A stretch of 64,000 bases of DNA from Octopus vulgaris (taxonomy: Eukaryota): assembly GCA_951406725.2 (NCBI GenBank), contig OX597816.1, forward strand, positions 40,424,001-40,488,000. The letters are read 5' to 3'. The translations under genes and the position numbers were made by a program. This document shows, in pieces, positions 3,263 through 61,459 of the stretch. Position 1 is the stretch's first letter; every line of letters starts with the position of its first letter. A model generated the notes under the pieces. It ran no database searches. It was given only the letters and a program-made list of their open reading frames with translations, and had not been told where the DNA came from.

Positions 3263-3300
<38 letters not shown>

Positions 3301-3349
3301 AAACAAGTCAAAAATAGAAATTGCTAAAATAATTTTATAGTGAACATTT

Positions 3350-3387
3350 CAGTACCGGTTTCGGTCATTTTGAGACCTTTTCAACTG
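3350..3387 (-). ncRNA. Minimal type-I hammerhead ribozyme (U3-A8 variant)
   Basis: Minus strand: CAG-TTGAAAA-GGTC-tcaaaat-GACC-GAAA-CCGG-TA-CTG; stems I and II pair; palindromic stem III ACCGGT. Confidence 0.8.
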
Positions 3388-3916
3388 TAACGATTAAATA
3401 ATTAAATTTAGAAAAATTAGAAGAAAAGTTTTTTTAAAGGAATATTTCTATAGTAGTGTTCAGATATAAGTGGCATTCTGCCTTTCTCTGACTCCTTTGT
3501 TTGCACTTGTGTGTTGGAGGTCGTTGTGAGTTCTTGGTAGGGTAGAAGAAGAGGAAGGCTGATGAGGAAAGGGGGTGGGAAAATCTGGGAGTGCCCTGAT
3601 GGTCGTATTTTGAATGGTCAGTGGCGGCTAGCAGTCGCAGTTCAATTCAGGAGAATATTTCTATTGAAAGGCTTCTTTATGGAATTTGCGTAAGTGTTAT
3701 ACTAAAAAACATTAGTGACAAAGTTAAGGGGTAGAAGGTGGAGAAGTAGTAGTAGAAGAAGAAGAAGAAGAAGAAGAAGAAGAAGAAGAAGAAGAAGAAG
3801 AAGAAGAAGAACTCCACCTTCTACCCCTTAACTTTGTCACTAATGTTTTTTAGTATAACACCTACGCAAATTCCATAAACAAGCCTTTCAATAGAAATAT
3901 TCTCCTGAATTGAACT

Positions 3917-4351
3917 TCAACACAGAAGCCGACAGTAAAAAAATGTGGAAGACCCAATTGCGGGATATGCGACTATCTAATTGAGGGATCAGAGTTCTCC
4001 TTCAAACAGGGACAACGGTTTACAGTGAAAAGCAACTTCACATGTGCTTCGGAGAACCTAATATACTCACTAACCTGCTCCGGGTGTCGAGAGCAGTACA
4101 TAGGCCAAACAAAAAATGGTTTGCGTTAACGAATGGCCCTGCACAGATCCCAGATAAAAATTCCCCAAAACAGAAAAATAGCTTTTAGCCAACACATAGA
4201 TACTTGCGCCAACAAAAAAACACCAAACTTCAGGATTTTCCCCCTCTACCAATTTAGGGACGATACAACCTCGAGACAACGAATAAGTAAAGAAAATCTC
4301 TTTATTGCAAAATACAGGCCACTTCTTAACGGGCCTGCGACAAACAATTAA
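3917..4351 (+). pseudogene. PLE GIY-YIG endonuclease remnant
   Basis: One frame: STQKPTVKKCGRPNCGICDYL…NFTCASENLIYSLTCSGCREQYIGQTKNGLR*RMALHRSQI…KENLFIAKYRPLLN. Single stop at 4127-4129; clearly homologous to the 43321-44250 ORF. Confidence 0.9.
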
Positions 4352-4999
4352 TATACCTCAACTTTAGAATAAAAGAAATATATACACACACAAATATTGC
4401 ATTCCATAGAATCCATTACTAATCAGCCCCATCACAGCTATACTTTCACCCATTCATATTCTCCCTTCTCTGTTTTTTTCTTCTTCTTCCTCTTCTTCTT
4501 CACCATCATCATTATCATCATCATCGTCGTCATCATCATCACCACCATCATCATCATCATCTTCTCCTTCTCCTTCTTCTTCTTCTTCTTCTTCTTCTTC
4601 TTCTTCTTCATCATCATCATCATCAACATCGTCATCTTCTTCTTCTTCTACTTCTCCACCCTCTACCCCTTAACCTTGTCACTGATGTCTTTAAGTATAA
4701 CGCCTACGCAAATTCCATATACAATTCCTGAATTGAACTGCGACTACTGGTCGCCACTGAGCATTCAAAATACGACCAACAGGGCTCCCCCAGATTTTCC
4801 CACTCCCACCCCCTCTCCACATCAGCGTCCTTCTTCTTCTCCTACCCTACCAAGAACTCACAACGACTCCGAACACACAAGTGCAAACAAGGGAGTCAGA
4901 GAAAGGCAGAATGCCACTCATATCTGAACACTACTATAGAAATATTCCTTTAAAAAAACTTTTCTTCAAATTTTTCTAAATTTAATTATTTAATCGTTA

Positions 5000-5037
5000 C
5001 AGTTGAAAAGGTCTCAAAATGACCGAAACCGGTACTG
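5000..5037 (+). ncRNA. Minimal type-I hammerhead ribozyme (U3-A8 variant)
   Basis: CAG-TTGAAAA-GGTC-tcaaaat-GACC-GAAA-CCGG-TA-CTG, in the sense 3' pLTR about 55 bp before (TA)n. Confidence 0.8.
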
Positions 5038-5107
5038 AAAGATTTACTATAAAATTATCTTAGCATTTTCTATTTTTGACTTGTTTTTTCATATATATAT
5101 ATATATA

Positions 5108-13374: not shown

Positions 13375-14175
13375 AAGTGGGGATCTGGCAGAATCGTTAG
13401 CACGACGGGCGAAATGCCTAGCAGTGTTTGCCTGCCGCTATCTTCTGAGTTCAAGTTTCGCGGGTTGATTTTGCCTGTCATCTTTTCATGGTCGATAAGA
13501 TAAGTACCAGTAAAACACTAGGGTCGATGTAATCGGCTCATTCCCTCCCAAAAATAGCAGTCCTTACCGCAAAATTTGAAACCATAATTATTATTGACCC
13601 TTAAGCGGTGAGGTGGCAGAATCGTTAGCACGCTAGGTGAAATGCTTAGCGGTATTTCGTCTGCTGTTACGTTCTGAGTTCAAATTCCGCCGAGGTCGAC
13701 TTTGCCTTTCATCCTTTTGGGGTCGATAAATTAAGTACCAGTTATGCACTGGGGTCGATGTAATCGACTTAATACCTATGTCTGTCCTTGTTTGTCCCCT
13801 CTGTGTTTAGCCCCTTGTGGGTAATAAAGAAATAGGTATTTCGTCTGCTGTTACGTTCTGAGTTCAAATTCCGCCGAGGTCGACTTTGCCTTTCATCCTT
13901 TCGGGGTCTATTAAATAAGTACCAGTTACGCACTGGGGTCGATAAAATCGACTTAATCCGTTTGTCTGTCCTTGTTTGTCCTCTCTGTGTTTAGCCCCTT
14001 GTAGTTAGTAAAGAAATAGGTATTTCGTCTGCCGCCGCTACGTTCTGAGTTCAAATCCCACCGAGGTCGATTTTGCCTTTCATCCTTTCGGGTCGATAAA
14101 TTAAGTACTGAAGTCGATGTAACCGACTAGTCTTCTACACCTACTTAAAGGCTTTTTGCCTCCAGTAGAAAGGAG
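13375..14175 (+). mobile_element. Cluster of SINE family B: one copy plus a tandem trimer with 184-bp period
   Basis: Heads at ~13375 and ~13604 (tggcagaatcgttagcacg); GGTATTTCGTCTG recurs at 13651, 13835 and 14019; central ctttcatcctttcggggtcgataaattaagtacc resembles the MetaSINE domain. Confidence 0.9.
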
Positions 14176-26699: not shown

Positions 26700-28460
26700 A
26701 AACCCCTGGCAACGACAATAAATTTAGCTGTAAATCAAATAAGTGCCCATCAGTAAATTGACTTTTCAATTCTTTTGAAGATGACCTATGTGCTCTTGTT
26801 AGAAACACTAAACTTAGAAACGCTATAATTCTTTTTAGTAGGATGTTAATAAAAACGAAATATGAGGAATACAATATTCTAGGAATATCAACCTGTATTT
26901 GGATAAAACTGGAAACCTGCTCTACGTAAATAACGAATCTCACTATTGTTTTGCCTTCATTTCTATCACAATTACCTATACAAAGAACATATGAGATATT
27001 TGAATGACATTAACAACAGAAGCCTCCGGAATACCTCAAGTCTAAATAAACATAATGAATCAGAACCACTCACTCTTGATCAGCCCTATTATACTCCTGA
27101 AGACCACAAAACTAATTTCAATGACAAGCCATCAATAAGACTAATTAATCCTACAGAATTGAGCTTAATTATAATTAGAAAACAATTTCTAGATAAGACT
27201 TTACCTAAGGTTAAGCAGGTTTCTCCATTAAGCTTTTCGAAAAAGACTCAAGGTCTCTAATTAATTGCTTTAAATCTTAACTTTAAACTCATGAAATTCG
27301 ACATTAATGATTACTACGCTTCCATCACTAAAACTCGGTGAATTGAAGTACTTAACATTTCTACTATTACTGTTAATGAAATAGAAGACAATAATGCAAA
27401 CAAGAAAACCTGGCATGTATTACAACGGATCATTATGGATTAAAATTTCTTCTAGAATCCCCTTCATTAACGCTATGAAAGGAAACTATTCAACTGAAAT
27501 TAGAAATCTTATCTGTTTGCTTCTACTCTTTAATCTCAAAGATAAAGTCCACAATGTACAGGTAGTCTCCATAGTTGCGGCCATCTATTGCAGTTCACCA
27601 ATTCTAACTTTTGGACTGTAGAGAGAATTACAAAATATTTACACCACTTTTTAAGAATGTACTACTACATATTACATAGAAATTAATCGCACAGTATGTA
27701 ATTTATTTGATACAACTCTTAATACTGCTAATAATTTATACTATCCAATTCGCGAACATAATAAATCACTGAATTATATGTATAGACATCTTAACTACCT
27801 AAAGGCTATTATAAATTGTTTAGTAAAGAACGTCTCACTTAAACATTATTATATTTCTGCTAATGGATAGATACTTAAATATTCTGCGACATATTACAAT
27901 AAAACCTCATAGAAGCGCATGTCATAAAAGATATTTATTTTACTAAATTTATTATACTAGAGAAGTTAGTCGTTGAAATAGAAAAAATGAATAATCGCTG
28001 GTTCAATTTTCCGCGTAAGTTGCATGTTATCGCCCCATAGTTTAGACACCTTCAACCGCAACCAAAATCTTGTATTCTACAGCATCTAACATTCCCCAAA
28101 TTATGCCTTGTGTCTAAAATATATAACTGAATTGTAATCGAAAAAGCCTATTAAATCTTAATTGCTTAGTAAAGAACATTGTATACCATATTGCAAATTC
28201 AGCGAATTCAGCGAAGACATACGTTGGTTCTGTTGCTAAGGAGATTAAGGCGTAACACACATAAACACACCTTTTGTGACGTCTCTTCTCTTTCATATTA
28301 GAAATATAGCACTAAGTTGGCTGCCTAATTTTAAAATGAGAATCATATTAATTCTGCAAAAATTTATTATTTTAAGCACAATTTTTATATTAATCCAAGG
28401 AGAAGTAACGCACAGCCTATCTTAACATTTTGTCTGAATTTCATAAACCATCATAACAAA
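26700..28460 (+). pseudogene. Decayed Penelope-like element (RT + C-terminal GIY-YIG), different lineage from the 43-kb element
   Basis: SFEDDLCALVRN; PEDHKTNFNDKPSIRLINP; LMKFDINDYYASITK (RT motif A); NLFDTTLN; RWFNFP; NIVYHIANSANSAKTYVGS (GIY-YIG-like). Confidence 0.75.
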
Positions 28461-29786: not shown

Positions 29787-32700
29787 CCATCATACTGATC
29801 TCTGTACATTGGGGTTGGATGATCTCGTGACTCCACCATACTGATCTCTGTATATTGGGGTTGGATGATCTCGTGACTCCACCATACTGATCTCTGTACC
29901 TTGTGGTTGGATGATCTCGTGACTCCACCATACTGATCTCTGTATATTGGGGTTGGATGATCTCGTGACTCCATCATACTGATCTCTGTACATTGAGGTT
30001 GGATGATCTCGTGACTCCACCATACTGATCTCTGTATATTGGGGTTGGATGATCTCGTGACTCCACCATACTGATCTCTGTACCTTGGGGTTGGATGATA
30101 TCGTGACTCCACCATACTGATCTCTGTACCTTGGGGTTGGATGATCTCGTGACTCCACCATACTAATTTCTGTACCTTGGGGTTGGATGATCTCGTGACT
30201 CCACCATACTGATCTCTGTACCTTGGGGTTGGATGATCTGATGACTCCACCATACTGATCACTGTACCTTGGGGTTGGATGATCTCGTGACTCCATCATA
30301 CTGATCTCTGTACCTTGGGGTTGGATGATCTCGTGACTCCACCATACTGATCTCTGTACCTTGGAGTTGGATGATCTCGTGACTCCACCATACTGATCTC
30401 TGTACCTTGGGGTTGGATGATCTCTTGACTCCACCATACTGATCTCTGTACCTTGGGGTTGGAGGATCTCGTGAAACTACCATACTGATCTCTGTACCTT
30501 GGGGTTGGATGATCTCGTGACTCCACCATACTGATCTCTGTACCTTGGGGTTGGATGATCTCGTGACTCCATCATACTGATCTCTGTACATTGGGGTTGG
30601 GTGATCTCATGACTCCATCATACTGATCTCTGTACATTGGGGTTGGATGATCTCGTGACTCCGCCATACTGATCTCTGTACATTGGGGTTGGATGATCTC
30701 GTGACTCCACCATACTGATCTCTGTACCGTGGGGCTGGATGATTTCGTGACTCCACCATACTGATCTCTGTACCGTGGGGTTGGATGATCTCGGGACTCT
30801 ACCATACTGATCTCTGTACCTTGGGGTTGGATGATCTCGTGACTCCACCAAACTGATCTCTGTTCCTTGGGGCTGGATGATCTCGTGACTCCACCATACT
30901 GATCTCTGTACCGTGGGGTTGGATGATCTCGTGACTCCACCATACTGATCTCTGTACCGTGGGGTTGGATGATCTCGGGACTCTACCATACTGATCTCTG
31001 TACCTTGGGGTTGGATGATCTCGTGACTCCACCAAACTGATCTCTGTTCCTTGGGGCTGGAGGATCTCGTGACTCCACCATACTGATCTCTGTACCTTGG
31101 GGTTGGATGATCTCGTGACTCCACTATACTGATCTCTGTACATTGGGGTTGGATGATCTCGTGACTCCACCATACTAATCTCTGTACCTTGGGGTTGGAT
31201 GATCTCGTGACTCCATCATACTGATCTCTGTACCTTGGGGTTGGATGATCTCGTGACTCCACCATACTGATCTCTGTACCTTGGAGTTGGATGATCTCGT
31301 GACTCCACCATACTGATCTCTGTACCTTGGGGTTGGATGATCTCTTGACTCCACCAAACTGATCTCTGTACCTTGGGGTTGGAGGATCTCGTGACACTAC
31401 CATACTGATCTCTGTACCTTGGGTTTGAATGATCTTGTGACTCCACCATACTGATCTCTGTACCTTGGGGTTGGATGATCTCGTGACTCCATCATACTGA
31501 TCTCTGTACATTGGGGTTGGGTGATCTCATGACTCCATCATACTGATCTCTGTACATTGGGGTTGGATGATCTCGTGACTCCACCATACTGATCTCTGTA
31601 CATTAGGGTTGGATGAACTCGTGACTCCACCATACTGATCTCTGTACCGTGGGGTTGGATGATCTCGTGACTCCACCATACTGATCTCTGTACCGTGGGG
31701 TTGGATGATCTCGGGACTCTACCATACTGATCTCTGTACCTTGGGGTTGGAGGATCTCGTGAAACTGCCATACTGATCTCTGTACCTTGGGGTTGGATGA
31801 TCTCGTGACTCCACCATACTGATCTCTGTACCTTGGGGTTGGATGATCTCGTGACTCCACCATACTGATCTCTGTACCTTGGGGTTGGGTGATCTCATGA
31901 CTCCATCATACTGATCTCTGTACATTGGGGTTGGATGATCTCGTGACTCCGCCATACTGATCTCTGTACATTGGGGTTGGATGATCTCGTGACTCCACCA
32001 TACTGATCTCTGTACCGTGGGTTGGATGATCTCGGGACTCTACCATACTGATCTCTGTACCTTGGGGTTGGATGATCTCGTGACTCCACCAAACTGATCT
32101 CTGTTCCTTGGGGCTGGATGATCTCGTGACTCCACCATACTGATCTCTGTACCGTGGGGTTGGATGATCTCGTGACTCCACCATACTGATCTCTGTACCG
32201 TGGGGTTGGATGATCTCGGGACTCTACCATACTGATCTCTGTACCTTGGGGTTGGATGATCTCGTGACTCCACCAAACTGATCTCTGTTCCTTGGGGCTG
32301 GAGGATCTCGTGACTCCACCATACTGATCTCTGTACCTTGGGGTTGGATGATCTCGTGACTCCACCATACTGATCTCTGTACCTTGGGGTTGGATGATCT
32401 CGTGACTCCACCATACTAATCTCTGTACCTTGGGGTTGGATGATCTCGTGACTCCATCATACTGATCTCTGTACCTTGGGGTTGGATGATCTCGTGACTC
32501 CACCATACTGATCTCTGTACCTTGGAGTTGGATGATCTCGTGACTCCACCATACTGATCTCTGTACCTTGGGGTTGGATGATCTCTTGACTCCACCAAAC
32601 TGATCTCTGTACCTTGGGGTTGGAGGATCTCGTGACACTACCATACTGATCTCTGTACCTTGGGTTTGAATGATCTCGTGACTCCACCATACTGATCTCT

Positions 32701-35700
32701 GTACCTTGGGGTTGGATGATCTCGTGACTCCATCATACTGATCTCTGTACATTGGGGTTGGGTGATCTCATGACTCCATCATACTGATCTCTGTACATTG
32801 GGGTTGGATGATCTCGTGACTCCACCATACTGATCTCTGTACATTAGGGTTGGATGATCTCGTGACTCCACCATACTGATCTCTGTACCGTGGGGTTGGA
32901 TGATCTCGTGACTCCACCATACTGATCTCTGTACCGTGGGGTTGGATGATCTCGGGACTCTACCATACTGATCTCTGTACCTTGGGGTTGGATGATCTCG
33001 TGACTCTACCAAACTGATCTCTGTTCCTTGGGGCTGGAGGATCTCGTGACGCTACCATACTGATCTCTGTACCTTGGGGTTGGATGATCTCGTGACTCCA
33101 CCATACTGATCTCTGTACCGTGGGGTTGGATGATCTCGGGACTCCACCATACTGATCTCTGTACCGTGGGGTTGGATGATCTCGGGACTCTACCATACTG
33201 ATCTCTGTACCTTGGGGTTGGATGATCTCGTGACTCCACCATACTGATCTCTGTACCTTGGGGTTGGATGATCTCGTGACTCCACCATACTGATCTCTGT
33301 ACCGTGGGGTTGGATGATCTCGTGACTCCACCATACTGATCTCTGTACCGTGGGGTTGGATGATCTCGGGACTCTACCATACTGATCTCTGTACCTTGGG
33401 GTTGGATGATCTCGTGACTCCACCAAACTGATCTCTGTTCCTTGGGGCTGGAGGATCTCGTGACTCCACCATACTGATCTCTGTACCTTGGGGTTGGATG
33501 ATCTCGTGACTCCACCATACTGATCTCTGTACCTTGGGTTTGGATGATCTCGTGACTCCACCATACTAATCTCTGTACCTTGGGGTTGGATGATCTCGTG
33601 ACTCCATCATACTGATCTCTGTACCTTGGGGTTGGATGATCTCGTGACTCCACCATACTGATCTCTGTACCTTGGAGTTGGATGATCTCGTGACTCCACC
33701 ATACTGATCTCTGTACCTTGGGGTTGGATGATCTCTTGACTCCACCAAACTGATCTCTGTACCTTGGGGTTGGAGGATCTCGTGACACTACCATACTGAT
33801 CTCTGTACCTTGGGTTTGAATGATCTCGTGACTCCACCATACTGATCTCTGTACCTTGGGGTTGGATGATCTCGTGACTCCATCATACTGATCTCTGTAC
33901 ATTGGGGTTGGGTGATCTCATGACTCCATCATACTGATCTCTGTACATTGGGGTTGGATGATCTCGTGACTCCACCATACTGATCTCTGTACATTAGGGT
34001 TGGATGATCTCGTGACTCCACCATACTGATCTCTGTACCGTGGGGTTGGATGATCTCGTGACTCCACCATACTGATCTCTGTACCGTGGGGTTGGATGAT
34101 CTCGGGACTCTACCATACTGATCTCTGTACCTTGGGGTTGGAGGATCTCGTGAAACTGCCATACTGATCTCTGTACCTTGGGGTTGGATGATCTCGTGAC
34201 TCCACCATACTGATCTCTGTACCTTGGGGTTGGATGATCTCGTGACTCCACCATACTGATCTCTGTACCTTGGGGTTGGGTGATCTCATGACTCCATCAT
34301 ACTGATCTCTGTACATTGGGGTTGGATGATCTCGTGACTCCGCCATACTGATCTCTGTACATTGGGGTTGGATGATCTCGTGACTCCACCATACTGATCT
34401 CTGTACCGTGGGTTGGATGATCTCGGGACTCTACCATACTGATCTCTGTACCTTGGGGTTGGATGATCTCGTGACTCCACCAAACTGATCTCTGTTCCTT
34501 GGGGCTGGATGATCTCGTGACTCCACCATACTGATCTCTGTACCGTGGGGTTGGATGATCTCGTGACTCCACCATACTGATCTCTGTACCGTGGGGTTGG
34601 ATGATCTCGGGACTCTACCATACTGATCTCTGTACCTTGGGGTTGGATGATCTCGTGACTCCACCAAACTGATCTCTGTTCCTTGGGGCTGGAGGATCTC
34701 GTGACTCCACCATACTGATCTCTGTACCTTGGGGTTGGATGATCTCGTGACTCCACCATACTGATCTCTGTACCTTGGGGTTGGATGATCTCGTGACTCC
34801 ACCATACTAATCTCTGTACCTTGGGGTTGGATGATCTCGTGACTCCATCATACTGATCTCTGTACCTTGGGGTTGGATGATCTCGTGACTCCACCATACT
34901 GATCTCTGTACCTTGGAGTTGGATGATCTCGTGACTCCACCATACTGATCTCTGTACCTTGGGGTTGGATGATCTCTTGACTCCACCAAACTGATCTCTG
35001 TACCTTGGGGTTGGAGGATCTCGTGACACTACCATACTGATCTCTGTACCTTGGGTTTGAATGATCTCGTGACTCCACCATACTGATCTCTGTACCTTGG
35101 GGTTGGATGATCTCGTGACTCCATCATACTGATCTCTGTACATTGGGGTTGGGTGATCTCATGACTCCATCATACTGATCTCTGTACATTGGGGTTGGAT
35201 GATCTCGTGACCCCACCATACTGATCTCTGTACATTAGGGTTGGATGATCTCGTGACTCCACCATACTGATCTCTGTACCGTGGGGTTGGATGATCTCGT
35301 GACTCCACCATACTGATCTCTGTACCGTGGGGTTGGATGATCTCGGGACTCTACCATACTGATCTCTGTACCTTGGGGTTGGATGATCTCGTGACTCTAC
35401 CAAACTGATCTCTGTTCCTTGGGGCTGGAGGATCTCGTGACGCTACCATACTGATCTCTGTACCTTGGGGTTGGATGATCTCGTGACTCCACCATACTGA
35501 TCTCTGTACCGTGGGGTTGGATGATCTCGGGACTCTACCATACTGATCTCTGTACCTTGGGGTTGGATGATCTCTGATCTCGTGACTCCACCATACTGAT
35601 CTCTGTTCCTTGGGGCTGGATGATCTCGTGACTCCACCATACTGATCTCTGTACCGTGGGGTTGGATGATCTCGTGACTCCACCATACTGATCTCTGTAC

Positions 35701-36834
35701 CGTGGGGTTGGATGATCTCGGGACTCTACCATACTGATCTCTGTACCTTGGGGTTGGATGATCTCGTGACTCCACCAAACTGATCTCTGTTCCTTGGGGC
35801 TGGAGGATCTCGTGACTCCACCATACTGATCTCTGTACCTTGGGGTTGGATGATCTCGTGACTCCACCATACTGATCTCTGTACCTTGGGTTTGGATGAT
35901 CTCGTGACTCCACCATACTGATCTCTGTACCTTGGGGTTGGATGATCTCGTAACTCCATCATACTGATCTCTGTACCTTGGGGTTGGATGATCTCGTGAC
36001 TCCACCATACTGATCTCTGTACCTTGGAGTTGGATGATCTCGTGACTCCACCATACTGATCTCTGTACCTTGGGGTTGGATGATCTCTTGACTCCACCAA
36101 ACTGATCTCTGTACCTTGGGGTTGGAGGATCTCGTGACACTACCATACTGATCTCTGTACCTTGGGTTTGAATGATCTCGTGACTCCACCATACTGATCT
36201 CTGTACCTTGGGGTTGGATGATCTCGTGACTCCATCATACTGATCTCTGTACATTGGGGTTGGGTGATCTCATGACTCCATCATACTGATCTCTGTACAT
36301 TGGGGTTGGATGATCTCGTGACTCCACCATACTGATCTCTGTACATTAGGGTTGGATGATCTCGTGACTCCACCATACTGATCTCTGTACCGTGGGGTTG
36401 GATGATCTCGTGACTCCACCATACTGATCTCTGTACCGTGGGGTTGGATGATCTCGGGACTCTACCATACTGATCTCTGTACCTTGGGGTTGGATGATCT
36501 CGTGACTCTACCAAACTGATCTCTGTTCCTTGGGGCTGGAGGATCTCGTGACGCTACCATACTGATCTCTGTACCTTGGGGTTGGATGATCTCGTGACTC
36601 CACCATACTGATCTCTGTACCGTGGGGTTGGATGATCTCGGGACTCCACCATACTGATCTCTGTACCGTGGGGTTGGATGATCTCGGGACTCTACCATAC
36701 TGATCTCTGTACCTTGGGGTTGGATGATCTCGTGACTCCACCAAACTGATCTCTGTTCCTTGGGGCTGGAGGATCTCGTGACACTACCATACTGATCTCT
36801 GTACCTTGGGGTTGGATGATCTCGTGACTCCACC
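29787..36834. repeat. Tandem array of a 46-bp unit (~153 copies) with higher-order repeat
   Basis: Consensus CCACCATACTGATCTCTGTACCTTGGGGTTGGATGATCTCGTGACT; the GGAGTT variant recurs at 30363, 31283, 32524, 33674, 34915 and 36026. Confidence 0.98.
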
Positions 36835-42868: not shown

Positions 42869-43011
<143 letters not shown>

Positions 43012-43144
43012 AAAATAGTAAAGTGTGAAAAAACGACAGAAGGCTTAAATGTTAAAAAATATATATATTTGTGTCAAAATGTCTGGAGAATATTGGAAAA
43101 ATTTTTTTTCCTTTCCTTAAAATGACATAATTTTAAAATTTTTA

Positions 43145-43184
43145 AAGAAATTACCGGTTTCGCGTGTAGCTTTTCAAATTTCTT
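43145..43184 (-). ncRNA. Minimal type-I hammerhead ribozyme (U3-A8 variant)
   Basis: AAGAAAT-TTGAAAA-GC-tacac-GC-GAAA-CCGG-TA-ATTTCTT; 7-bp stem I, 2-bp stem II, palindromic stem III. Confidence 0.8.
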
Positions 43185-43320
43185 GTGACGTTATGTTTAT
43201 ATTGCATGGAATTATCGTTGTTTTTATTTCCAGGAGATTTCTAAATAAGGGGGGTAGTGAGTGATTTTTTCCGGTGTAGGGGAGATAATCGCTTAAAAAT
43301 TTTTTTTTCCCTTTTCCTTG

Positions 43321-44250
43321 TTAATTTCTCTGTGTCAGTATGTTCGGACGGTTGAGTCTGGGTTTGTACTTTTCAATGAAGAATGTTTCCTTGTTCAGTC
43401 TCATTTGTGTTGATGATCCGAAAGCACATTGGTAAAATGGGAAGATTAAAAATTGTGGCAGTAGTTGCTTTGCGCATTTCTCAATGTGCTCACTAAAAGG
43501 TATCATTCTATATTCTGGGAATGCAATCTGTTGTCGATGCAGTGTGCATCTGCGCCTGAGTGATAGTCCCGTGGAACCCACGTAGTCTTGGTGGCAGCCC
43601 GAGCATTTAATAACATAAATTATGTTTTCAGAGGCACAAGTAAAGTTAGATTTGATCTTAAATTTCTGTCCCTCTTTAAAGAAGAATTCTGATCCTTCCA
43701 ATAGGTTAGGACATGTTGCACAGTTCGATCTACCACATTTTTTTACTTTTGCATCCGTAATTTTAGAAGACGATTTTGCCTTTGTGAGAATCTTTTTAAG
43801 TGATTTAGGCTGTTTGTAGCTTTTAATGATTTGGTGTATGTTTAGAATTTCCTTTAATTTTGGGTTTTTATGAAGTATTGGTAAATTCTGGGTGATGATG
43901 GTGAAGGCTTCTTTGTTTCTGGGGTTGTATGTAGATATGTAAGGTAGTATTTTCGGGGAAGGTGTGTTGTTGTGTTGAACTTTTCTTAAAGTTTCTATGT
44001 TGATTTCTGTTGCACGTCTGATCCCATCCTCTATGAGTTGAGCTGGGTAATGTCTGTCAATTAGGGTGTTTTTGAGTTCTTGCAGTCTAAAGTTCCTGGT
44101 ATTTTGTTCTGACACTATTGTGCATATCCTTCTTGCAAGGTTGAAGGGGATGTTTGTTTTAGTGTGTCTTGGGTGGCATGAATTAAAAAGAAGGTATTGT
44201 TTGGCGTCTGTGGCTTTGTAAAAAATGTCTGTTTCTATTTTAAGGTTAAT
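43321..44250 (-). CDS. PLE polyprotein C-terminal part: RT thumb region, Cys linker and GIY-YIG endonuclease (5'-truncated, 309 open codons)
   Basis: IETDIFYKATDAKQYLLFNSCHPRHTKTNIPFNLARRICTIV…KKCGRSNCATC…NIIYVIKCSGCHQDYVGSTG…RRRCTLH…HIEKC…RLNKETFFIEKYKPRLN; no internal stop; no genuine start codon. Confidence 0.92.
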   Translation of the reverse strand: MNLKIETDIFYKATDAKQYLLFNSCHPRHTKTNIPFNLARRICTIVSEQNTRNFRLQELKNTLIDRHYPAQLIEDGIRRATEINIETLRKVQHNNTPSPKILPYISTYNPRNKEAFTIITQNLPILHKNPKLKEILNIHQIIKSYKQPKSLKKILTKAKSSSKITDAKVKKCGRSNCATCPNLLEGSEFFFKEGQKFKIKSNFTCASENIIYVIKCSGCHQDYVGSTGLSLRRRCTLHRQQIAFPEYRMIPFSEHIEKCAKQLLPQFLIFPFYQCAFGSSTQMRLNKETFFIEKYKPRLNRPNILTQRN

Positions 44251-44375
44251 TTAAAAAAATTAACCTTAAAATAGAAACAGACACGCTCAGACATTAATTG
44301 TACATATATTGTAAGATGCTTCAGATGTTTTTCAATGCAGGAGTGGGAATTGTCAGTCCTTCATATGTGAATGCC

Positions 44376-57780: not shown

Positions 57781-57784
<4 letters not shown>

Positions 57785-57910
57785 AATAGTAAAAAGTGAA
57801 AAAACTACAGAAGGCTTGTTTTAAAAGGTTAAAAAATATATATTTGAGTCAATATGTCTGAAGAATGTTATAAATCGTTTACATACAATGACATAGTATA
57901 GAAGAAATGA
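57781..57910 (-). mobile_element. Terminal pLTR fragment related to the 43-kb PLE, embedded in (TA)n
   Basis: agaaaatagtaaaaagtgaaaaaactacagaaggctt…atatatttgagtcaatatgtctg matches 43010-43085. Confidence 0.8.
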
Positions 57911-58209: not shown

Positions 58210-58285
<76 letters not shown>

Positions 58286-58315
58286 CTCTCTCTATATATA
58301 TATATACATATATAT

Positions 58316-58654
58316 CACTGTTATCGTTCTGTTAACGTTTTGGCGTTCAAACGAGTGTACTTGCATAGATGTGGCAACATATGATATTTTGTCCAGGTAT
58401 ATGCAGCTGATGAAGACAAATCAAATCTACGTTGTCAAACGTATTTGAAGAGTCTGAAACCGGTACTGCATTATCCGATTCTAGGTTTTCCATTTTTCAG
58501 ATGTTCTTCCTAGAGGTAAAACAATTTTTTTTCAGGTTTGTTGCACACACGCGTCTTTGCTAGTATATACGCAGTGAAGCTATACAATAGCGTCGTATTT
58601 ATTACGATTGCTATTTTCCAGTAAATATCGGTGCCACGTTCTACCATTTATTTA

Positions 58655-58657
<3 letters not shown>
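58316..58657 (+). mobile_element. Noncoding ~340-bp hammerhead-bearing element flanked by TA microsatellite (solo pLTR or retrozyme-like)
   Basis: Bounded by TA repeats on both sides; central canonical hammerhead; no meaningful ORF. Confidence 0.7.
58401..58471 (+). ncRNA. Type-I hammerhead ribozyme with canonical core
   Basis: ATGCAG-CTGATGA-AGAC…(tcaaat/atttga and acgtt/aacgt inner helices)…GTCT-GAAA-CCGG-TA-CTGCAT; predicted cleavage after GUA at 58465. Confidence 0.88.
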
Positions 58658-58699
<42 letters not shown>

Positions 58700-59063
58700 G
58701 ATCAAAAGCCCACCCATGTCCAATGGACGTACTGAGTTGTCAAACCAAACATTTAAACCAAATTTTCTCAAAACAACTTGTCCGACCGCTCTTTGAGAAA
58801 CACTGATTTAACCAAAATTTGAGACACCACAAAAGAAGAAATAAAGATAGACTTTTTTTACTATTCCAAGAAAAACGATTTTACAAATGCATGTTCCCAC
58901 GGCCTTATCGATCGCATTCTCACATGGAATCGATTTTTGTAATTTTTTAAAGTCTTACACATGCCCTGATACCGTCGGTATCTATATATCAAATTTGAGC
59001 GCAATCGGATGGAGAATGCCCGAGGTACTAGAAGGCACAAATACAGACAGACAGAACGGATTT

Positions 59064-59289: not shown

Positions 59290-59670
59290 TAAACTCTGTA
59301 ACGCATTTTGTTCGTATTTACGTTCTGTGTCCAAATTCCGCCAAGACCAACTTTGACTATCATATTTCCTTGTCGATAAAATACGTACCGTTTGTGTACT
59401 GGGTTGATGTAATCGTGAAATACGTATCCCTGGATGTTTGGCCTTGTACAAAAATTTCATACCAATATTAAAATATATGGAGGGCGGTGAGGTGGTAGAA
59501 TCGTTAGCACGTCGGGCAAAAATATGCTGAGCGACATTTCGTCCGTCTGTACGTTCTGAGTTCAAATTCTGCCCAGGTCGATTTGAACATTCATCATTTT
59601 GGGGTCGATAAATTAAGTACCAGTCGAGCACTGGGATGGTTGTTACCGACTTAATCTGTCCCTCGAATTT
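59290..59670 (+). mobile_element. Two adjacent SINE family B copies
   Basis: Degenerate copy 59290-59465; copy 59483-59670 ggcggtgaggtggtagaatcgttagcacg…ggtcgataaattaagtacc. Confidence 0.8.
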
Positions 59671-61459
59671 GTGTGCAATTCATTATATGTGTGCAGTTCA
59701 TTAACGATTTATTTATTTATTTCAATCAAGATGAATTGGTTATATATCATTTATTTATTTATCTTGTAATTTACTTTACATCGCGATTTGAAGACAAAAA
59801 CGTCATGTTGGTTAGAAGTTTTCAACAAACCTTTCACCGATTCATTAGTTTATCTCTGTCCGTGTTTATCTTGCAATTATACACACATTTCCACGCACAC
59901 AAAGTAGTCGCACGAGCGCGTCTGTGCAAAAAATGTTGATCTTACATGTTACAGAATGAGATTCTTTCCGTGGGAAATTTTTAAAATTAGAAACAACAAA
60001 AAACAAGCAAGAGGTCTACTTTTATGCACGAAAATGATTTCTAAACATACACAGTACATTATGTATACATAAAAACATTTGAAACGAAATACGTTATGGA
60101 ATAAATAAGAAACGTAATGAGGTACTTTCTTACTACCTATTGTATGAACAATGGTGGAAAAATGAAAGTTATTGGGAGAATGATAAACACAATCATCTGT
60201 CTAATTAGTCATCATTATTAACATTCGTTTCACGTTAAAGAACATGTCCAAAATTGTTTGATGTTTACGGCGCCTCCTTCGTGAGTGTTATAGGTAACAA
60301 ACATTCATTACACCTTGATGCATATTTGGGTTGTCGTGGTCTAACTTGGCAACCGTGCCAAGCTTCCTTTCTAATGACGAGTATTTTGGGGAACTAGTAG
60401 GGTAAGAAACGATAACTGCCACAAGGCAGATGATAATAGGGGCATCAATGGTTATCAAACAATGTATATGCCTGTTCTTTAAACTTGCATATCTTCGTCT
60501 AGAGAGCATTATCTCATTTTATTCAAAAGATGTCTGAAAGGAATAAGCGACCTTCATTTTTATCGCTGGGAATGACTATTTAATGTGGCACCATAACGCC
60601 ATGTAAGAGCGGAAATCTTCCATGGCGACCTGATACATCTGATATGGTGTTCGTGTTTTATGTCCTTCATGCTTAAAATTAGGTGATATTGCAAAGTCTG
60701 GGAAGCGCTTTAGACACTTTGAATGTCTCCTGTATTTTCATACATACTCAATAATCTTGATTTTATCTCGCCTTTTGCGGTTCTCAGAGGTTTCATTCAA
60801 ACATCTAAACAGTTATGTGAAGTCAGCTGCATCTTCACCTTGTTTTTGGTGCTTGTGGGATTGTTTATGCAAATTGCGTTCTTAAATACCTTTCTGAGTT
60901 TACTGGTTGTTACTATAACATAGTTACGAGAAGTTCGCTAGTGATATGTATCCGTAAGGGCTCTGAACCAGTTACTTTCTATGTTGGAATCTAGGGTATT
61001 CCAGCTAGAAGCATATATTTCACTCTTAATATATTCAAGAAGAGTATTTTATTGTGAAGAATTTGTGTGACTTAAAAGGAATTCGACATTTAATAATAAA
61101 AGAAATAGTAAACACGATATATAGTCCACGAACTGCTAGAACTTTAGACATTGAAGCTAAAGTTGATCAATGCTAGTTGTGTCAACGAAAGGGCTCGATA
61201 TTGAAAAATACCAAAACATCTACAAAACCAGGAGCGTAATTCGTGATGCATCATATAAGATCCATGTGATACATGCATACATATAAATACATACACACAT
61301 ACAAACACAAACACGCACACACACACACGCGCGCGTACACACATATGTATATATGTATGTAGGTGTGTATGGAAGTCTGTACGTGTGTCACTATGTCAGT
61401 ATATGTATTCGTGTTCACGCATATGTACACAAATACACACACAGAAACACACACACAAA

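What the first reader, a model, noticed from the sequence alone, without database searches (positions are those of the whole stretch)
58316..58657. Stand-alone ~340-bp noncoding element with a canonical-core hammerhead
It has a perfect CUGAUGA/GAAA/GUA core, a 6-bp stem I, an extended multi-helix stem II and an ACCGGU palindromic stem III. It has no ORF and sits inside TA repeats on both sides. Its size and content fit either a solo PLE pLTR or a retrozyme-like non-autonomous RNA, which in tandem form would release unit-length, possibly circular, RNA (inference). This is the best candidate here for an active ribozyme.
Basis: partly seen in the sequence, partly recalled or inferred. Interest (0 to 1): 0.7.

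Follow-up and report, generated by a model that had tools for sequence, protein, structure and literature searches.

The report
Truncated solo hammerhead retrozyme copy
A complete hammerhead RNA motif sits in a lone, front-truncated 342-base copy of a many-copy non-coding repeat; it is likely an ordinary leftover of a retrozyme-type jumping element pasted by Penelope-like enzymes, and it is predicted to cut itself poorly unless paired with a second copy.

Summary
The hammerhead is real: a type I motif at 58401-58471 with a 6-bp helix I, a 4-bp helix II extended by a 34-nt insert, and a palindromic minimal helix III. It is the only strict hit in the window; 200 shuffled windows gave none.

The 342 bases are not a whole unit. 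Public contigs show a large, diverged family whose other copies continue upstream of 58315. One contig shows a head-to-tail repeat of about 429 nt with no room for an ORF. Four show inverted joints clustered at 58553-58565, a Penelope-type footprint. The family letter folds better than this copy's at 7 of 8 near-fixed sites. The window's two true Penelope-like elements have minimal U3-A8 hammerheads and unstructured ends.

Best reading (0.65): a 5'-truncated solo copy of a non-autonomous, Penelope-mobilised retrozyme-type family. Rival (0.27): solo pLTR of an autonomous element. Alone it is predicted to misfold, has GUA where most of the family has GUC, and cannot release a unit-length RNA. 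Cleavage and circles are untested. New member of a known kind; interest 0.25.

The parts
58316..58656 (+). 5'-truncated copy of a dispersed non-coding hammerhead repeat family; 37% GC, strongly self-paired
58401..58471 (+). type I hammerhead: helix I 58401-06/58466-71, core 58407-13 and 58456-59, predicted cleavage 3' of A58465
58391..58479 (+). helix I with a predicted bulged lower extension resembling the HH9 stem-I region (possible tertiary-contact partner; inferred)
   Evidence: alignment; fold
58414..58455 (+). helix II: 4 bp, internal loop, then two stacked helices (34-nt insert); hairpin kept in relatives with changed loops
   Evidence: loose ends at 58433 and 58444
58459..58464 (+). 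palindromic minimal helix III; a minority subfamily carries a 2-nt central insertion that keeps it palindromic
   Evidence: insertion rows and loose ends at 58461
58514..58521 (+). 5'-splice-donor-like 7-mer in the family majority (weakened in this copy); role untested
   Evidence: row 58520; about 0.015 expected per unit
58553..58565 (+). cluster of one side of 4 of 4 inverted joints in family contigs
   Evidence: table 5 and record 31
58210..58315 (.). left flank, compound (ATCT)n(CT)n(AT)n microsatellite
58657..58696 (.). right flank (TA)20; likely the insertion target at the family's 3' end

Best explanation
This is a lone, 5'-truncated copy of a many-copy non-coding repeat carrying a canonical type I hammerhead, and the family is likely a non-autonomous retrozyme-type element with a unit of roughly 430 nt that is likely pasted into (TA)n by Penelope-like (PLE) enzymes. 

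SHOWN: the hammerhead anatomy; no ORF; a large diverged family under four organism labels; extra family sequence upstream of this copy; one ~429-nt head-to-tail repeat; four inverted joints; better predicted folding of the family letters. 

INFERRED: tandem source loci give multimeric RNA; neighbouring hammerheads pair through the palindrome into a double hammerhead and cut out monomers, which may be ligated into circles; a PLE RT/GIY-YIG protein nicks (TA)n and copies the RNA from a fixed internal start near 58656, sometimes from both strands (inverted arms) and sometimes past one unit (partial tandems). Here copying stopped after about 342 nt, less than one round. This copy has one ribozyme, cannot release a monomer, and is most likely a decaying, nearly silent relic.
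For: (1) Hammerhead matches the published 'canonical' metazoan form (helix I 6 bp, helix II 4 bp, helix III 1-2 bp with palindromic loop; PMC4209133 part 1), not the PLE min-HHR; it resembles axolotl HHR_Amex1. (2) Internal control: both true PLE remnants in this window (43010-44250 minus; 3297-5090) carry minimal U3-A8 hammerheads and ends that fold no better than shuffles (z +2.9, -0.2, +0.9), whereas the unit gives z -3.3 to -4.3 in three runs. (3) At 7 of 8 sites where 85% or more of DNA-run depth shows another letter, the family letter lowers the ensemble energy by 0.65-4.2 kcal/mol; 14% of 300 random single changes lower it by more than 0.5. None of the 8 lies in the hammerhead. (4) X7 record 17 (1320 nt) reads 58489-58669, 74 other letters, then 58315-58449: period about 429 nt, too short for an ORF. 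(5) 4 of 11 joints are opposite-strand, each from a different run, with one side at 58553, 58554, 58562 or 58565; X8 record 31 is a 5'-to-5' junction, the PLE inverted-copy pattern (PMC8557442 section 6). (6) A minority subfamily keeps the helix III palindrome after a 2-nt insertion, as a dimer mechanism predicts. (7) 1080, 1159 and 404 contigs laid in X1, X2 and X6, mostly under 99% alike.
Against: The tandem evidence is one contig at one locus (1 of 13 joints listed over 8 runs); its upstream copy starts after the hammerhead and its match runs through the TA flank, so it could be two separate insertions into one TA tract. X8 seems to hold the same locus but listed no such joint. No array with two complete hammerheads was seen. 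Sequence upstream of 58315 was visible only as loose ends of at most 30 letters, so an ORF further upstream in other copies is not excluded. A donor-like 7-mer in the family majority fits a pLTR, which can hold a 5'-UTR intron. 1 of 24 background windows folded as well as the unit (z -4.04). One search showed 0 of 2 inverted joints, and the geometry of 3 of the 4 inverted joints was not checked. No partner PLE with matching sequence was found: local alignment to the window's PLE ends scored 22-26 against shuffle means of about 19.
Confidence: 0.65

Rival explanations
1. Solo 3' pseudo-LTR of an autonomous Penelope-like retrotransposon, left by early 5' truncation; the hammerhead would serve to cut tandem PLE transcripts.
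For: Fixed 3' end at (TA)n, 5' truncation, inverted arms and partial tandems are all PLE features. A 3'-end fragment of a true PLE lies about 450 bp away at 57781-57869. Family sequence continues upstream of 58315. A donor-like motif sits downstream of the hammerhead. Retrozymes derive from pLTRs, so the two classes grade into each other.
Against: The hammerhead is canonical, unlike the min-HHRs described for metazoan PLEs and unlike those of the PLE remnants in this window. The unit is strongly folded while the window's PLE ends are not. One contig shows a ~429-nt period with no ORF. No ORF remnant lies next to this copy.
Confidence: 0.27
2. A host-domesticated solitary ribozyme like amniote HH9, acting in a host transcript.
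For: Best Rfam hammerhead match is HH9, with a similar stem I.
Against: It is one copy of a large family, sits between microsatellites, and carries private changes that weaken folding; score 25.5 is far below 52; monomer predicted to misfold.
Confidence: 0.03
3. Chance resemblance to a hammerhead.
For: Below the Rfam gathering score.
Against: 0 hits in 200 shuffled windows; no core letter other than position 17 changed at 30% or more of depth; palindrome kept through an insertion.
Confidence: 0.01

Closest known systems
Metazoan non-LTR retrozymes (Cervera and de la Pena 2020, PMC7229834: passages and sections 14, 15, 17 read; supplements not read), especially axolotl Rtz_331/HHR_Amex1 and mussel 350-390 bp repeats
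   Same: Non-coding, low GC (37%), strongly self-paired unit of a few hundred bases with a canonical type I hammerhead; weak palindromic helix III implying dimer cleavage; coexists with PLEs carrying minimal hammerheads.
   Different: This locus is a truncated monomer; helix II carries a 34-nt structured insert instead of a terminal loop; tandem arrays, cleavage and circles are not shown.
Animal retrozymes as non-autonomous PLE derivatives (Li, Clavereau and Pollet 2026, bioRxiv 10.64898/2026.07.22.740005: parts 1-3 of 5 read; supplements closed)
   Same: Dispersed solo monomers are described as a common state; PLE link proposed.
   Different: That study covers 31 vertebrates and 4 invertebrates (insects and a coral). 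It counts monomers only at 80% or more of the consensus length; 342 of about 429 is borderline. No sequence homology to a partner PLE was found here.
PLE pLTR minimal hammerheads (Cervera and de la Pena 2014, PMC4209133: part 1 of 4 read; Craig et al. 2021, PMC8557442: passages and section 6 read)
   Same: Type I topology, dimer design, microsatellite targets, 5' truncation and inverted arms.
   Different: Canonical C3-G8 core with 6-bp helix I rather than a min-HHR; no adjoining ORF at this locus.
Rfam Hammerhead_HH9 (RF02275)
   Same: Similar helix I and core (25.5 bits).
   Different: Below gathering (52); multicopy repeat rather than a conserved single-copy intronic ribozyme (HH9's nature is recalled).

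Membership tests
Canonical type I hammerhead | Conserved core CUGANGA, GAAA, UH in type I order | tested here: met
   58407-13, 58456-59, 58464-65
Canonical type I hammerhead | Helix I 6 bp, helix II 4 bp, helix III 1-2 bp with palindromic loop (PMC4209133) | tested here: met
   helix II closes with A-U and is extended
Canonical type I hammerhead | Loop 1 to loop 2 tertiary contact | tested here: inconclusive
   stem I region aligns to HH9, but loop 2 is replaced by an internal loop; no 3D test
Canonical type I hammerhead | Self-cleavage 3' of position 17 | not testable with these tools
   monomer predicted to misfold
Metazoan non-LTR retrozyme | Short non-coding unit (150-450 bp), GC under 45% | tested here: met
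   37% GC, longest open stretch 49 codons; period about 429 nt at one other locus
Metazoan non-LTR retrozyme | Tandem units with two or more complete hammerheads, at this locus | tested here: not met
   single copy in the window
Metazoan non-LTR retrozyme | Tandem units with two or more complete hammerheads, in the family | tested here: inconclusive
   one partial head-to-tail dimer, 1 of 13 joints; no genome held
Metazoan non-LTR retrozyme | Highly self-paired RNA | tested here: met
   z -3.3 to -4.3, 65% paired; family letters stabilise 7 of 8 sites
Metazoan non-LTR retrozyme | Expressed as linear and circular monomers | not testable with these tools
   only contigs were available
PLE pseudo-LTR | Adjoins an RT plus GIY-YIG ORF, at this locus | tested here: not met
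PLE pseudo-LTR | Adjoins an RT plus GIY-YIG ORF in other copies | tested here: inconclusive
   upstream sequence seen only as loose ends of 30 letters or fewer
PLE pseudo-LTR | Minimal hammerhead type | tested here: not met
   canonical here; minimal U3-A8 forms in the window's PLE remnants
PLE pseudo-LTR | PLE insertion footprint: microsatellite target, 5' truncation, inverted arm | tested here: met
   geometry checked for 1 of 4 inverted joints
Rfam Hammerhead_HH9 | Score at or above gathering (52 bits) | tested here: not met
   25.5 bits

The most novel reading that the evidence does not exclude
A distinct cephalopod retrozyme family of about 430 nt whose canonical hammerhead uses an internal loop of an extended helix II for its tertiary contact, whose whole RNA was under selection to fold, and whose inverted insertion arms begin at one fixed spot about 90-105 nt from the 3' end, a direct trace of how Penelope enzymes copy a small ribozyme RNA.
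Probability: 0.4. Interest if true: 0.42.

Novelty: new member of a known kind. Interest (0 to 1): 0.25.

Why it matters
Modestly. Retrozyme-type hammerhead repeats and their link to Penelope-like elements are published. This adds a likely cephalopod family: the searches 'hammerhead, Penelope, Octopus' (4 listed) and 'hammerhead ribozyme, cephalopod' (2 listed) returned no paper describing one. It also offers a useful contrast in one window: structured RNA with a canonical hammerhead versus unstructured PLE ends with minimal hammerheads. If the clustered inverted joints hold genome-wide, they would be footprint evidence for PLE-driven mobilisation, which the papers read infer mainly from co-occurrence and homology. 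This particular copy is most likely inert.

Tried and rejected
No whole genome is held, so tandem arrays and ORF links could not be counted. BLASTN of the unit against the window found no second copy. Pattern scans for the hammerhead found 0 loci in metagenome contigs and viral contigs, so no long relative could be fetched. No RNA holder listed: the 'RNA?' runs are guesses, so nothing here bears on expression. Summed contig depth is about 2-3 times higher over 58560-58624 than over the hammerhead in X1, X2, X6 and X20; it fits extra short 3' pieces but is no copy number and depends on this copy's local divergence, so it was not counted as evidence. I considered that the upstream family sequence is the end of a GIY-YIG ORF, or that the tandem junction lies near 58619; the loose ends are too short and unlike 58600-58619 to support either. 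Rfam miRNA and pestivirus matches overlap TA or CA repeats and were dismissed. Earlier findings by sequence and by place returned nothing for this family (words-only one search also empty). No covariance model was built because no full relative sequences were available.

Full report
Observation. Helix I is 58401-58406 with 58466-58471, the core is CUGAUGA at 58407-58413 and GAAA at 58456-58459, helix II is 58414-58417 with 58452-58455 and encloses a 34-nt insert of two stacked helices, the palindrome is 58459-58464, and position 17 is A58465. It is the only descriptor hit on both strands of the window; 200 shuffled windows gave none. Rfam gives no match at gathering level and a sub-threshold HH9 match, 25.5 bits, E 0.0011. 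The unit is 37% GC and has no open stretch over 49 codons. The right flank is (TA)20; the left is a compound (ATCT)n(CT)n(AT)n array. The genome looks like an octopus: this rests on a SINE sequence I recall and on unchecked notes of earlier agents, not on a call that names it.

Predicted activity. As a monomer, the A58459-U58464 pair of helix III has probability 0.0. The minimum-energy fold (-23.4 kcal/mol) pairs the core CUG with the palindrome. The open-core fold scores -17.6 and the fold with helix III closed scores -12.3, both evaluated without the 2-bp lower stem, so the comparison is not exactly like for like. Two palindromes pair at -8.3 kcal/mol. This is the 'canonical' metazoan design, in which a weak palindromic helix III blocks monomer cleavage and tandem copies work as a dimer (PMC4209133 part 1; PMC3088659 passages). 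The axolotl monomer of this design cleaved 6% in an hour and dimers far better (PMC7229834 section 15). GUA is a natural but slower triplet than GUC in one viroid hammerhead (PMC1636495 abstract). In five runs 59-83% of summed depth has C at 58465.

The family. No genome is held and the window has no second copy. The run search listed 24 rows, 20 holding part of the stretch, from 9 studies and 4 organism labels. I laid 8 of the 20. Contigs laid: 1080 (X1), 1159 (X2), 21 (X7), 24 (X8); 404 (X6), 44 (X11), 5 (X19), 81 (X20); most are under 99% alike. So this is a large, diverged repeat family. Among the loose-end rows shown, 5 of 8 runs have non-TA sequence before 58315, and four of them share its last letters; X1 record 1 extends about 46 nt beyond 58315. 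The window copy is therefore 5'-truncated. In one search, whose list of changes at 30% or more is complete, no core letter changes except position 17; changes do occur at the base of helix II (58414, 58455) and in one X19 contig at 58405. A minority subfamily has a 2-nt insertion in the middle of the palindrome that keeps it palindromic.

Arrangement of other copies. Thirteen joints were listed over the two calls. One is head-to-tail: X7 record 17 reads 58489-58669, 74 other letters, then 58315-58449, a period of about 429 nt, too short for an ORF. X8 appears to hold the same locus (same loose end before 58489, same private letters) but listed no such joint. The match runs through the TA flank, so two insertions into one TA tract remain possible. 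Four joints are opposite-strand, one in each run, with one side at 58553, 58554, 58562 or 58565; one search showed none. X8 record 31 is a 5'-to-5' junction with the short arm ending in TA; the other three could not be oriented. Inverted 5'-truncated copies, partial tandems and microsatellite targets are PLE hallmarks (PMC8557442 section 6), and a purified PLE protein cuts and extends both strands of AT-rich DNA and starts copying inside its RNA (PMC11167929 part 1). The other eight joints are skips, at least one of which is a diverged stretch rather than a deletion.

Internal controls. The window holds two true PLE remnants. A 309-codon frame at 43324-44250 (minus) has a CxxxxCxxC linker and a GIY-YIG domain (Atlas hits 0.98 with HTH_animal and GIY-YIG clusters). 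A second GIY-YIG remnant at 3935-4336 (55% identical) lies between outward-facing arms 3297-3720 and 4677-5090. All three ends stop at (TA)n and carry a minimal hammerhead with a U3-A8 core and the same palindrome, a variant published for PLEs. These ends fold no better than shuffles (z +2.9, -0.2, +0.9). The unit gives z -4.3, -3.8 and -3.3 in three runs; its minus strand gives -2.8; 1 of 24 background windows did as well (-4.04). At the 8 sites where 85% or more of DNA-run depth reads another letter, the family letter lowers the ensemble energy at 7 (by 0.65-4.2 kcal/mol; the eighth 0.0), against 14% of 300 random changes. The sites span the 5' hairpin, the long-range helix and the 3' end. 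The source RNA was thus better folded along its whole length, as described for retrozyme RNAs, and this copy is decaying. One search hid 78 of its rows, so sites beyond 58642 may be missing from the set. The unit shares only the hammerhead motif with the PLE ends (scores 22-26, shuffle means about 19), so its partner PLE is not identified.

Mechanism. I commit to a non-autonomous retrozyme-type family mobilised by PLE machinery (0.65). Tandem source loci would give multimeric RNA, double hammerheads would cut out monomers of about 430 nt that may circularise, and a PLE RT/endonuclease would prime at (TA)n and copy from a fixed start near 58656. All of these steps are inferred. This copy records less than one round. 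The main rival is a solo pLTR of an autonomous PLE (0.27): the footprint is the same, the upstream sequence was seen only in 30-letter pieces, and the family majority has a splice-donor-like 7-mer at 58514-58520 (about 0.015 expected by chance), as pLTRs can hold an intron start. The two classes grade into each other: Li et al. report retrozymes as pLTR derivatives with many solo monomers, and found cleavage in 1 of 9 dimers tested.

Novelty. The kind is known. Searches for hammerheads in octopus or cephalopods listed no paper on such a family; supplements were not seen. Earlier agents noted several other retrozyme-like families in this genome with two-armed insertions; look-ups by sequence found no match to this one, so identity with any of them is not shown, and their notes are leads only. 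Verdict: real motif, ordinary class, probably inert copy; interest 0.25.

Noticed in passing
window 43010-44250 (minus): 5'-truncated C-terminal-endonuclease PLE (CxxxxCxxC linker, GIY-YIG; Neptune- or Nematis-like by motif) whose 3' end holds a minimal U3-A8 hammerhead near 43150-43185 and stops at (TA)67; a short fold-back palindrome sits at its 5' junction near 44260-44320.
   Followed up: partly
window 3297-5090: Two-armed PLE insertion: inverted arm 3297-3720, GIY-YIG remnant 3935-4336, main arm to 5090; both arms (87% alike) carry a U3-A8 hammerhead and end in (TA)n; internal GAA and TCA/TCT microsatellites.
   Followed up: partly
window 57781-57869 (minus): About 90-bp 3'-end fragment, 82% identical to the end of the PLE at 43010, abutting (TA)n about 450 bp left of the finding.
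   Followed up: partly
window 58697-59063: Single-copy-in-window element between two TA tracts, directly right of the finding; its end looks like a Helentron-associated (HINE/DINE-like) non-autonomous element (resemblance recalled, not tested).
   Followed up: no
window 29787-36834: 7-kb minisatellite of 153 copies of a 46-bp unit, 93% matches, about 50% GC, strongly T-skewed.
   Followed up: no
window 26934-27260 (+): Short frame resembling a retroelement RT N-terminal region, possibly a Naiad remnant (motif recalled); no Pfam hit.
   Followed up: no
window 13651-14108 and 59470-59690: Copies of a SINE that I recall as an octopus family, one as a 184-bp x 2.5 tandem; a loose end like its sequence at 58572 in run X6 suggests one inserted into a family copy.
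   Followed up: no
family contigs laid on window 58414-58461: Subfamilies differ around the ribozyme: one shifts helix II by a base with a mismatch at its foot (rows 58418, 58455), another has a longer palindromic helix III that could close as a monomer hairpin and diverges for about 70 nt downstream.
   Followed up: partly
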